Source: an uncultured Candidatus Saccharibacteria bacterium (GTDB lineage: Bacteria; Patescibacteriota; UBA1384; 2-12-FULL-50-11). From it: DNA of 63,239 nt. Within the stretch, counting starts at the first letter, position 1; every line of letters starts with the position of its first letter. Shown in pieces: positions 28,806-29,002 of the stretch. Under the pieces are notes generated by a model. That model was not told where the DNA came from, did not search any database, and was given only the letters and a program-made list of their open reading frames with translations. The stretch covers positions 1-63,239 of the forward strand of contig CAYHNZ010000002.1 in assembly GCA_964358205.1 (NCBI GenBank), read 5' to 3'. The position numbers were made by a program, and so were the translations under genes.

Positions 28806-29002
28806 GAAAAACCGCGAGCCATGACCCATCAAAAGCAGGTCAGCGAGTGGTTTTTCTCCAAGCCCGCCGCTAGGCGTAGCGTGCGGGGTAGGGAGTGTGA
28901 GGGTGTAGGGGGTGCTTCGCAATTGTCGCGAACCGAAGTTCGCTCGCTCTCTAGCGAGAGTAACCCCCTCCACCCTCACAGAAAAGCCAGCGACGCAGTC
29001 GC
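28806..29002 (-). repeat. Structured mosaic repeat, copy E (most complete compact copy)
   Basis: Its 5' 99 nt (28904-29002) differ at one position from 44336-44434 in inverted orientation. Its central block is shared with copy C and its 3' block with copy F. Confidence 0.9.

What the first reader, a model, noticed from the sequence alone, without database searches (positions are those of the whole stretch)
28806..29002. A mosaic, hairpin-rich repeat family occurs in six copies with compensatory base changes and no adjacent transposase
Copies lie at 1-166(+), 28806-29002(-), 34118-34264(+), 39251-39340(+, fragment), 44336-44615(+) and 56307-56456(-).

They share this block order:
- A 5' hairpin: GCGACTGCGTCGC, GTCGCTGCGCGAC or GCGGCTTGCAGCCGC.
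- CTGGCTT(T/C)TCTG.
- A long helix: TGAGGGTGGAGGGGG...CCCCCTACACCCTCA, rewritten in copy D as GCGAGGACCAGGGGG...CCCCTAGCCCCTCGC.
- CCCTACCCCGCACGCTAC.
- A small variable hairpin: CGC-TTAC-GCG, CACC-TAC-GGTG or CGC-TG-GCG.
- AAAAAGTAACTCGCTGG.
- An optional hairpin.
- TACCATGGCTCGTCACTTTTT.

The terminal T-run is not a simple terminator. It pairs with the upstream A-run, and the adjacent pairs covary: AAAAAGT/ACTTTTT in copies A and C versus AAAAACC/GGTTTTT in E and F.

The copies are mosaics:
- The 5' 99 nt of B and E differ at one base, but their 3' halves belong to different subtypes.
- A and B share a 95-nt insertion made of two nested hairpins.
- F carries a nested 44-nt element.

Conserved structure with rewritten helices points to a folded RNA or ssDNA element. 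Candidate classes are a MITE/PATE-like derivative of a hairpin-dependent transposon, or an sRNA or guide-RNA-like family. I cannot match it to any RNA family I know.
Basis: seen in the sequence. Interest (0 to 1): 0.82.

Follow-up and report, generated by a model that had tools for sequence, protein, structure and literature searches.

The report
Structured intergenic repeat family in Berkelbacteria
A previously undescribed, 125-245-base, multi-hairpin non-coding element is scattered between housekeeping genes of groundwater Berkelbacteria (tiny candidate-phyla-radiation bacteria); its helices are kept by compensating base changes, some copies are conserved between very distant genomes, and its function and means of spread are unknown.

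Summary
Six copies sit at the stated coordinates, far beyond chance. Twenty-one copies from at least six Berkelbacteria genomes or contigs share one fold.

The fold, 5' to 3':
- an optional 5' hairpin, P0;
- a long helix, P1, capped by A(G/A)UUGCGAAGC;
- a C-rich single strand, CCCUACCCCGCACGCUAC;
- a small variable hairpin, P2;
- a long hairpin, P3, clamped by an A-tract paired to a U-tract.

Covariation is strong: 88% of cells pair, against about 48% when partners are slid. No Rfam family matches. There is no transposase, terminal inverted repeat, clear target duplication, guide-like segment or viral copy.

The copies are mosaic, carry nested inserts, decay into relics and break assemblies. 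Yet copies upstream of the ribonucleotide reductase (RNR) and S21 promoters and downstream of ftsZ persist in genomes whose RNR proteins are 65-70% identical. They are better conserved than the adjacent spacers, so at least some are under selection.

Orientation relative to neighbouring genes is mixed, and neither strand is clearly favoured.

Best reading (about 0.4): a lineage-specific structured gene-boundary module, comparable to REP/BIME or BOX elements, transcribed with neighbouring genes and spread by recombination. Rivals are an independent small-RNA gene family and a hairpin-dependent ssDNA mobile element. It is a new family of a known kind, of moderate interest.

The parts
1..171 (+). 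Copy A, long subtype, cut at its 5' end by the window start. The full copy is L079 9689-9935.
   Evidence: (D2)
28802..29002 (-). Copy B. It has P0, P1 with a 38-nt two-hairpin insert in the loop, J1, P2, and a long-P4 3' module with a G-C-closed A/U clamp.
34118..34264 (+). Copy C, the reference copy and best covariance-model score (144.6 bits). The whole element spans these coordinates.
34118..34140 (+). C: P0 hairpin GUCGC-UGC-GCGAC plus the U-rich linker UGGCUUUUCU.
   Evidence: flagged as terminator-like
34141..34185 (+). C: helix P1 (15 bp with a bulged A) and its conserved apical loop UUAGUUGCGAAGCA.
34186..34205 (+). C: the conserved C-rich single strand J1, ACUCCCUACCCCGCACGCUA.
34206..34216 (+). 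C: the small variable hairpin P2, CACC-UAC-GGUG.
   Evidence: second pair G-C 9, C-G 8, A-U 3
34225..34264 (+). C: helix P3, an A-tract paired to a U-tract (10 bp), enclosing UCGCU, the P4 hairpin and AUGGCUC.
39251..39345 (+). Copy D, a decayed relic. It has an internal deletion of J1, P2 and the P3 5' arm, plus a 43-nt insert. It lies at the conserved site upstream of the RNR promoter.
   Evidence: (I12)
44336..44616 (+). Copy E, long subtype. It carries both the 38-nt loop insert and the 92-nt domain. It lies at the site upstream of the S21 promoter.
   Evidence: (I1, D2)
44629..44646 (+). Relic of a B-type 3' end (ATGGCTTGCGGTTTTTT), 13 nt after copy E.
   Evidence: read directly from the sequence
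56306..56456 (-). Copy F, subtype with P1 = GCGAGGACC.../...CCCCUCGC. The orthologous copy is L051 1634-1788.

Best explanation
This is a Berkelbacteria-specific family of self-contained structured non-coding modules that sit at gene boundaries.

Each module folds, on a single strand, into:
- P0, an optional 5' hairpin;
- P1, a long helix capped by the conserved loop A(G/A)UUGCGAAGC;
- the C-rich strand CCCUACCCCGCACGCUAC;
- P2, a small variable hairpin;
- P3, a long irregular hairpin closed by an A-tract:U-tract clamp.

Inferred mechanism:
- The module is transcribed as part of neighbouring transcripts, mostly as the 3' end of the upstream mRNA.
- The clamp hairpin with its U-tract, which looks the same on both strands, stops or punctuates transcription in either direction.
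- The conserved loop and C-rich strand are a recognition or stabilising domain for an unknown host factor.
- New copies arise, and modules are swapped, by recombination or gene conversion between copies rather than by a dedicated transposase.
- Copies are lost by deletion.

Shown here: the family, the fold, the covariation, the mosaicism, gain and loss between relatives, and purifying selection at some loci.

Inferred only: transcription, a terminator or boundary role, the host factor, and spread by recombination.
For: Family and fold:
- 21 copies in at least six genomes or contigs score 45-145 bits with one covariance model.
- 88.4% of cells pair, against 74.8% in shuffles and 41-49% when partners are slid. 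21 pairs carry double changes, against 4-7 when slid.
- The outermost clamp pair switches between A-U (12) and G-C (8).

Gene-boundary position:
- All copies are intergenic and lie next to unrelated housekeeping genes.
- Sense-oriented copies begin 8-40 nt after a stop codon.
- P0 plus its U-rich tail is flagged as terminator-like.

Function at some loci:
- The site upstream of RNR is occupied, in one orientation, in L077, L215/L216, L217, L219 and, as a relic, the window.
- The RNR proteins of L217 and L219 are 70% identical.
- Those two copies share a private P3 interior. They are 71% identical overall and 84% in P3, against 45-53% in the adjacent spacers.
- Copy F is 87% identical to L051, while the flanking proteins are 67-78% identical.

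Recombination and loss:
- The same 3' module is joined to three different P1 types, and L036b has mismatched P1 arms.
- Relics remain at the F and C sites of L215.
Against: - There are no expression data.
- P3 is not a canonical terminator. It has large internal loops and was not flagged by the scan.
- Antisense-oriented copies at sites C and D and in L035b and L217 already have a canonical terminator next to them.
- Copies E and L035a lie between divergent genes, where nothing needs terminating.
- A terminator role does not explain why the P1 loop and the C-rich strand are the best conserved sequences.
- The internal-loop motifs UCGCUG and AUGGCUC are not conserved in the distant copies.
- No mechanism of dispersal has been demonstrated.
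Confidence: 0.4

Rival explanations
1. The family consists of independently transcribed small structured RNA genes on the reader's sense strand. Each ends at its own P3/U-tract terminator. Each acts in trans or binds a protein through the invariant apical loop and the C-rich strand. The C-rich strand could, for example, pair with G-rich Shine-Dalgarno sequences, as the C-rich motifs of RsaE/RoxS or LhrC do (from my own knowledge).
For: - The fold has several helices with covariation and conserved unpaired motifs.
- Orientation is independent of neighbouring genes, as expected for stand-alone genes.
- At sites C and D, and in L035b and L217, the element's U-tract faces the neighbour gene's own canonical terminator. 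That is the pattern of two convergent transcription units.
- Orthologous loci are under purifying selection.
- Ribosome-binding sites in this genome are GGAGGG-like, complementary to CCCUCC/CUCCCU (read from the sequence).
Against: - No sigma-70-like promoter lies upstream of B, C or E.
- TAnnnT hexamers just 5' of P0 are only mildly enriched, and they would place the start inside the covarying P0 hairpin.
- A.C mismatches (30 cells) outnumber G.U pairs (12) on this strand.
- The antisense strand folds better in 14 of 14 copies and has the better z-score in 4 of 5.
- About one copy per 10 kb, with relics and chimeras, would be extreme for an sRNA family.
Confidence: 0.27
2. The element is a non-autonomous mobile element that moves as single-stranded DNA. 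An enzyme encoded elsewhere in the genome (an HUH Y1 transposase or RAYT-like protein, or a recombinase that targets hairpins) recognises its hairpins and conserved unpaired motifs. Covariation would then reflect selection for mobility, or palindrome-correcting template switching.
For: - Copy number differs sharply between relatives. The window has four copies in a 23-kb syntenic block where L074, L075 and L220 have none.
- Sites A and B are empty in L081 and L075.
- Copies are mosaic and carry nested small inserts, including the palindrome CCGCCAGCTGGCGG found at several independent positions.
- Many contigs end inside a copy.
- No strand preference is detectable.
- Copies sit next to terminator hairpins on either side.
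- The loop contains GCGAAGC, known as a very stable DNA mini-hairpin, and the antisense strand carries TAGCGT, which resembles the CS-6 motif of ssoA origins. Both resemblances come from my own knowledge and are untested.
Against: - No transposase, integrase or HUH gene appears in any fetched locus.
- There are no terminal inverted repeats.
- The only flanking direct repeat (AGTTGAGAYAC at B) lies 32 and 41 nt away from the element ends, and the flanks themselves are unique.
- The 5' flanks do not share a target tetranucleotide.
- No copy was found in viral contigs.
- Old orthologous copies are conserved rather than decaying neutrally.
Confidence: 0.2
3. The element is a double-stranded-DNA site, such as a binding array for a nucleoid, replication or segregation protein, or a cruciform or G-quadruplex former.
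For: - Orientation is independent of transcription.
- No strand asymmetry is detectable.
- The antisense strand of most copies carries four G-tracts in a G4-like spacing, GGGG-TA-GGG-N7-GGG-TGTA-GGGGG (read).
Against: - Sequence-rewritten helices with preserved pairing are not expected for a duplex binding site.
- The long subtype (A and E) and L048 lack the G4 arrangement.
- No candidate binding protein is known.
Confidence: 0.08
4. The element is a guide-RNA scaffold (an omega RNA of TnpB or IscB, or an IS110 bridge RNA) left without its protein gene.
For: The only support is a general resemblance: a structured RNA of 130-240 nt present in several copies.
Against: - No variable unpaired guide or loop segment exists.
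- The 3' end is a paired U-tract, so no flanking guide could be transcribed.
- No TnpB, IscB or IS110 gene is in any locus.
- HEARO and the other Rfam models give no hit.
Confidence: 0.03

Closest known systems
REP/BIME elements of Enterobacteria and Pseudomonas (from my own knowledge; reviewed in PMC2817692 and PMC3184786, listed)
   Same: They are intergenic, hairpin-forming, present in many copies and found in both orientations. They are assembled into mosaics, lie at gene ends, and are reported to affect termination and mRNA stability.
   Different: A REP is a single imperfect palindrome of 20-40 nt with a GTAG/CTAC head, mobilised by RAYT transposases. Here the unit is 125-245 nt with four or five helices and conserved unpaired motifs. 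No RAYT gene was seen, and some copies are conserved between genomes whose RNR proteins are only 65-70% identical.
BOX elements of Streptococcus pneumoniae, and ERIC, RUP and Correia elements (from my own knowledge; reviews PMC2229807 and PMC10969869 listed)
   Same: They are modular, mosaic, non-coding repeats of about 100-200 nt without a transposase gene. They fold into stable structures and lie next to genes.
   Different: Those families have terminal inverted repeats, and usually TA target duplications. Neither is found here. The sequences are unrelated and the phylum is different.
Intrinsic (bidirectional) terminators, including conserved repeated terminator motifs such as TRIT in Mycobacterium (from my own knowledge)
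   Same: The 3' domain is a hairpin flanked by an A-tract and a U-tract, placed just after stop codons or between convergent genes.
   Different: The hairpin has large conserved internal loops. The whole A/U tract, including a closing G-C or A-U pair, covaries as a helix. About 90 nt of conserved structure precede it. Canonical terminators often lie beside it.
IS200/IS605-derived PATEs and TnpB omega RNAs
   Same: They lack terminal inverted repeats and target duplications, depend on hairpins, and act on single strands.
   Different: Here there are no matching subterminal hairpins at both ends, no constant target tetranucleotide, no TnpA or TnpB gene nearby, and no guide segment.
Multicopy C-rich-motif sRNAs (LhrC, RsaE/RoxS; from my own knowledge)
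   Same: They have a stem-loop, an unpaired C-rich stretch and a terminator, and occur as several paralogues per genome.
   Different: Those families have 2-7 copies, each with a clear promoter. Here no promoter is found, copies are far more numerous, and relics are present.

Membership tests
Any Rfam 15 family | Covariance-model score at or above the family's gathering threshold | tested here: not met
   No hit in the whole window. E-value scans of copies C, A and B return only miRNA noise at 12-20 bits.
MITE | Terminal inverted repeats | tested here: not met
   Only the internal hairpins P1 and P3 are found. No pairing links the 5' and 3' ends.
MITE | Target-site duplication abutting the ends | tested here: not met
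   Filled and empty sites were compared at A (L081) and B (L075). The only direct repeat, AGTTGAGAYAC, lies 32 and 41 nt from the ends.
IS200/IS605 PATE | Similar subterminal hairpins at the left and right ends | tested here: not met
   P0 at the 5' end has no counterpart at the 3' end.
IS200/IS605 PATE | Constant 4-5-nt target immediately 5' of the left end | tested here: not met
   The 5' flanks end in ATTT, TATT, TTAT, TCTT, TTCA or TTTT.
IS200/IS605 PATE | A cognate TnpA (Y1) gene in the genome | not testable with these tools
   None is present in about 400 kb of fetched Berkelbacteria loci, but whole genomes could not be scanned.
REP/BIME | Imperfect palindrome of 20-40 nt with a GTAG head, plus a RAYT gene | tested here: not met
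   The unit is 125-245 nt with several helices, and no RAYT is seen in the loci.
Intrinsic terminator | G+C-rich hairpin with a small loop, followed directly by a U-tract | tested here: inconclusive
   P0 plus UGGCUUUUCU passes the consensus scan. P3 has the U-tract but also large internal loops, and it is not flagged. Activity cannot be tested here.
Guide RNA scaffold (omega RNA or bridge RNA) | A variable unpaired guide or target-binding segment, and an adjacent nuclease or recombinase gene | tested here: not met
   All variable parts are paired hairpins. No such gene is nearby.
Stand-alone sRNA gene | Its own promoter at a fixed distance upstream | tested here: inconclusive
   No sigma-70-like site lies upstream of B, C or E. 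AT-rich TAnnnT hexamers next to P0 are only mildly enriched.
Structured RNA or ssDNA element in general | Helices maintained by compensatory substitutions | tested here: met
   A manual alignment gives 434 Watson-Crick, 12 G.U, 30 A.C and 11 other cells.

The most novel reading that the evidence does not exclude
The element is a new class of functional structured RNA restricted to Berkelbacteria, present in many paralogous copies. Alternatively it is the substrate of an undiscovered hairpin-recognising ssDNA mobilisation system. In either case it acts through the invariant AGUUGCGAAGC loop and the C-rich strand with a dedicated protein partner. A loop-to-strand pseudoknot (GCG:CGC) is possible; it is supported by one double change.
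Probability: 0.3. Interest if true: 0.8.

Novelty: new variant of a known kind. Interest (0 to 1): 0.55.

Why it matters
Candidate-phyla-radiation bacteria have genomes of about 1 Mb with little spare DNA. Almost nothing is known about their non-coding RNAs or their repeats.

An element of 125-245 nt occurring about once per 10 kb would take up more than 1% of such a genome. Its fold is conserved between lineages whose RNR proteins are only 65-70% identical. That implies either a host function at gene boundaries or an efficient, still unknown way of spreading.

It also has practical consequences. It breaks metagenome assemblies. It also gives a covariance model for annotating these genomes and a concrete target for metatranscriptomic and structure-probing work.

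Tried and rejected
- **Public genome and metagenome scans** with CCCGCACGCTACN{15,40}ACTCGCTG. Most hits were chance. Only Patescibacteria or Berkelbacteria contigs were real.
- **Viral contigs**, two patterns. There were 130 loci and no real copy.
- **Rfam**, at gathering and E-value thresholds. Nothing was found.
- **tRNA or tmRNA origin.** ARAGORN finds none in the window.
- **Target-site duplication.** The 11-nt repeat at site B is not at the element ends, and the extra flanks at A and B are unique sequence. It could equally be the substrate of a deletion in the relative.
- **Strand assignment from G.U versus A.C.** I counted about 14 A.C events against about 8 G.U events, which is not significant (with copies). 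The antisense strand folds better, but its G-richness biases this.
- **Promoter search on both sides of the element.** Inconclusive.
- **Coding potential.** The conserved ATGGCTCG and the 140-aa ORF 33827..34249 were rejected. Copies differ by indels that are not multiples of three, and the changes covary as base pairs.
- **Pseudoknot between the P1 loop and J1.** The GCG:CGC pairs are invariant apart from one double change. This is too little to claim.
- **MAFFT with an N-padded manual alignment** did not keep my columns. I used model-based alignments instead.
- **My first shuffle script** timed out.
- **Literature searches** found nothing on such elements in Berkelbacteria or CPR bacteria.

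Full report
**Observation**

They are not chance.
- The 12-mer CCCGCACGCTAC occurs five times against 0.21 expected.
- The 3' block occurs four times against 0.20 expected.
- The 5' block occurs three times against 0 expected.
- Pairs of copies share stretches of 112 to 171 nt at 95-96% identity.

The corrections are given in the observation check. Copy 1-166 is cut by the window start. The full copy was recovered from a contig of the same organism (L079 9689-9935).

**Source and relatives**

The window comes from a Candidatus Berkelbacteria genome (Patescibacteria) in Hainich aquifer metagenomes. The evidence is that identical proteins lie on Hain_H43 contigs. The closest RNR homologues are also named Berkelbacteria or Patescibacteria.

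Pattern scans of public genomes and metagenomes returned mostly chance matches. blastn, nhmmer and a covariance model picked out real copies only in Patescibacteria or Berkelbacteria contigs: L002/L047, L011, L023/L036, L034, L035, L039/L051, L046 and L048/L063.

Loci fetched through RNR homologues added copies in L077, L215/L216, L217, L218 and L219. None was found in viral contigs.

**Anatomy**

Reference copy C is at window 34118-34264.

| Part | Coordinates | Sequence or description |
|---|---|---|
| P0 | 34118-34130 | hairpin GUCGC-UGC-GCGAC, followed by UGGCUUUUCU |
| P1 | 34141-34185 | 15 bp plus a bulged A, capped by UUAGUUGCGAAGCA |
| J1 | 34186-34205 | ACUCCCUACCCCGCACGCUA |
| P2 | 34206-34216 | small variable hairpin |
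| linker | 34217-34224 | purine-rich (AGCAAAGU) |
| P3 | 34225-34264 | AAAAAGUAAC paired to GCUACUUUUU |

P3 encloses UCGCU, a variable hairpin (P4) and AUGGCUC.

Across the 21 copies, the features that persist in the divergent ones are:
- the P1 loop core, A(G/A)UUGCGAAGC;
- the C-rich strand, CCC(U)ACCC.GCACGC;
- the existence of P1, P2 and the A/U-clamped P3.

P0, the P3 interior and the motifs UCGCUG and AUGGCUC are not universal.

In the long subtype (A and E) a 92-nt domain is inserted inside P1. The basal P1 helix is still closed, by GUGAGA/UCUCGC, next to the core.

**Covariation**

I built covariance model R1 on 11 copies with a structure I specified. It finds all copies at 45-145 bits and nothing else in the decoy loci.

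On 21 copies:

| Measure | Observed | Column shuffles | Partners slid |
|---|---|---|---|
| Cells that pair | 88.4% | 74.8% | 41-49% |
| Pairs with changes on both sides | 21 | 14.2 (mean) | 4-7 |
| Covariation score | 0.331 | 0.125 | at most 0.086 |

P1 exists in at least five fully rewritten versions: GUGAGGGUG..., GCGAGGACC..., GCAGAGGAC..., GUGGGGGAAGGGACA... and UGAAGAGGUAGGGGGAC....

The second P2 pair is G-C in 9 copies, C-G in 8 and A-U in 3. The outermost clamp pair of P3 is A-U in 12 and G-C in 8.

Two caveats apply. The alignment is fitted to the model. In DNA palindromes, concerted arm changes can also arise by template switching without selection.

**Which strand, and RNA or DNA**

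This remains open.
- By my count of independent events this is about 14 against 8, which is not significant.
- The antisense strand has the lower folding energy in 14 of 14 copies, by 9.7 kcal/mol on average.
- It has the better z-score against dinucleotide shuffles in 4 of 5 copies. Its G-richness favours it in silico.

**Genomic behaviour**

*Position and neighbours.* Copies are always intergenic. Their neighbours are unrelated housekeeping genes: recR, rluA, manC, DUF6580, RNR, S21/yqeY, DUF3048, ASCH, recA, RNase J, ftsK, mur genes, ftsZ and others. No transposase, integrase, reverse transcriptase, or HUH or TnpB-like gene is in the window or in any fetched locus.

*Orientation.* About half of the copies point the same way as the downstream gene, and about half converge on it. 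Several copies (C, D, E, L035a, L036b) are antisense to flanking genes or divergent from them.

*Ends.* There are no terminal inverted repeats and no target duplication at the ends.

*Mosaicism.* The B-type 3' module is joined to three different P1 types. L036b has a P1 whose two arms come from different subtypes and no longer match. Small inserts recur, among them a 14-16-nt palindrome, (T)CCGCCAGCTGGCGG(A), found at different positions inside copies and elsewhere.

*Copy number.* The 23-kb block around RNR holds four copies in the window. It holds none in L074, L075 and L220, one in each of L077, L218 and L219, and two in each of L215 and L217.
- Sites A and B are empty in L081 and in L075/L076.
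- L215 keeps short relics at sites F and C.
- Window copy D is itself a relic.

*Assembly breaks.* Many contigs end inside a copy (L034, L039, L046, L063, L073, L077, L082-L084), as expected for a multicopy repeat.

*Density.* L035 and L046 are probably the same organism as the window, judging only by matching sample and coverage. If so, it carries about nine copies in 88 kb.

**Conserved loci**

Some loci are old and conserved.
- The site just upstream of the RNR promoter, with the element pointing away from RNR, is occupied in L077, L215/L216, L217 and L219, and as a relic in the window.
- The site upstream of the S21 promoter is occupied in the window (E) and in L218.
- The site downstream of ftsZ is occupied in L215 and L217, with a shared private P3 sequence, CCGGC/GCCGG.

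The RNR proteins of L217 and L219 are only 70% identical. Their RNR-site copies nevertheless share a private P3 interior.

| Region compared (L217 vs L219) | Identity |
|---|---|
| Whole element | 71% |
| P3 and its interior | 84% |
| RNR promoter and leader | 67% |
| Adjacent spacers | 45-53% |

P1 differs between the two copies by changes that keep the helix (sequences).

Copy F is 87% identical to its positional orthologue in L051, while the flanking proteins are 67-78% identical. This argues for purifying selection on at least some copies, and so against a purely neutral or selfish repeat.

**Interpretation**

The data fit best a lineage-specific structured gene-boundary module, similar in behaviour to REP/BIME or BOX elements.
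- It is dispersed, mosaic and hairpin-rich, lies at gene ends and has no transposase of its own.
- It differs in having a larger, multi-helix fold with conserved unpaired motifs, and in having some positionally conserved copies.

I infer that it is transcribed with neighbouring genes. I also infer that its A/U-clamped hairpin, which is symmetric on the two strands, punctuates transcription in either direction. The P1 loop and the C-rich strand would then be recognised by a host factor. Spread and module exchange would occur by recombination between copies. None of these four steps is shown.

The weak points are:
- P3 is not a canonical terminator.
- Canonical terminators often lie beside the element.
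- Two copies lie between divergent genes.

The main rivals are these.
- **An independent sRNA gene family.** It is supported by the convergent-terminator arrangement at conserved sites. It is weakened by the lack of promoters and by the strand tests.
- **A hairpin-dependent ssDNA mobile element** with its enzyme encoded elsewhere. It is supported by the copy-number dynamics and the lack of strand preference. It is weakened by the absence of any enzyme gene, ends or target signature, and by the conserved orthologues.
- **A guide-RNA reading.** This is essentially excluded.

**Verdict**

The finding is real and not previously described, as far as Rfam 15 and two full-text searches show. It is a new family of a known general kind. 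The function is unresolved. Interest is moderate, 0.55.

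Noticed in passing
window 33810-34065 (-); also L074 13920-14120, L075 14200-14440, L077 4000-4270, L215 15910-16380: A conserved leader lies upstream of the DUF6580 gene. It starts with a promoter (TTGACT, 17 nt, TATATT), continues with GGUGGUGUCGAAAGGGUGUGCCCCCUCCCAUCUCUUUCGAUACCACC..., and ends in a hairpin plus U-run just before the start codon. It is conserved across Berkelbacteria. The gene lies next to a cobalamin adenosyltransferase gene and a B12-dependent RNR gene. This is a candidate riboswitch or leader with no Rfam match.
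   Followed up: partly
window 39353-39570 (-): A promoter-like site (TAGACA, 17 nt, TAAATT) is followed by about 190 nt ending in a strong terminator, CCCCCUC...GAGGGGGAUUUUUU. It lies between the NUDIX gene and copy D and is a candidate small RNA. Relatives L074 and L075 have different promoter-to-terminator units at the same place. Only sub-threshold Rfam noise was found.
   Followed up: partly
window 132-145, 44581-44594, 47306-47321; L036 2159, 2299, 4617; L034 81; L079 916; L215 about 9800: A 14-16-nt perfect palindrome, (T)CCGCCAGCTGGCGG(A), recurs as a small insert. It appears at different positions inside copies of the element, inside another hairpin, and on its own. It looks like a separate mini-repeat family.
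   Followed up: partly
window 39040-39100 (-) and the equivalent place in L074, L075, L077, L215, L217, L219: Two or three direct repeats of CCCGUA(N5-6), about one helical turn apart, lie just upstream of the RNR -35 box (CTTGACAAGG). They are conserved across Berkelbacteria and are probably a transcription-factor binding site.
   Followed up: no
window 39186-39227, 39586-39625, 40315-40356, 42883-42915, 43028-43080, 44023-44061: Repeats of the AGACTTTAGCCTTGAGACTT type flank genes of the ftsA-ftsZ-yqeY region in both orientations. A similar motif follows ftsZ in L074.
   Followed up: no
window 47275-47299, 47913-47957, 49026-49070, 49676-49720: A 25-45-nt motif, ...ATTCTACTCCCGAACCCAGAATTGTCGAGCTAC, is repeated at the 5' boundaries of four consecutive minus-strand genes (NUDIX, CYTH, deoxyribosyltransferase and peptide deformylase region). 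It may be a shared leader or promoter.
   Followed up: no
window 10679-10723 and 13543-13587: The last 45 nt of the L7/L12 gene (...[13 protein letters not shown], stop) are duplicated at 91% identity 2.9 kb downstream, outside any L7/L12 gene.
   Followed up: no
window 63057-63111 and 63185-63239: An exact 55-nt direct repeat with 128-nt spacing lies at the very end of the window.
   Followed up: no
P0005, P0006, P0008, P0009 (RNR homologues); L215 10001-14608: Several close relatives carry an intein with a LAGLIDADG or HNH/NUMOD homing endonuclease inside the RNR gene. The window's RNR has none.
   Followed up: no
window 34328-34924 (-) and 44709-44984 (+): Two small genes without Pfam matches lie next to copies C and E. 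One encodes 198 aa and the other a Cys-rich protein of about 90 aa. Both are absent from the syntenic regions of L074, L075 and L077.
   Followed up: no
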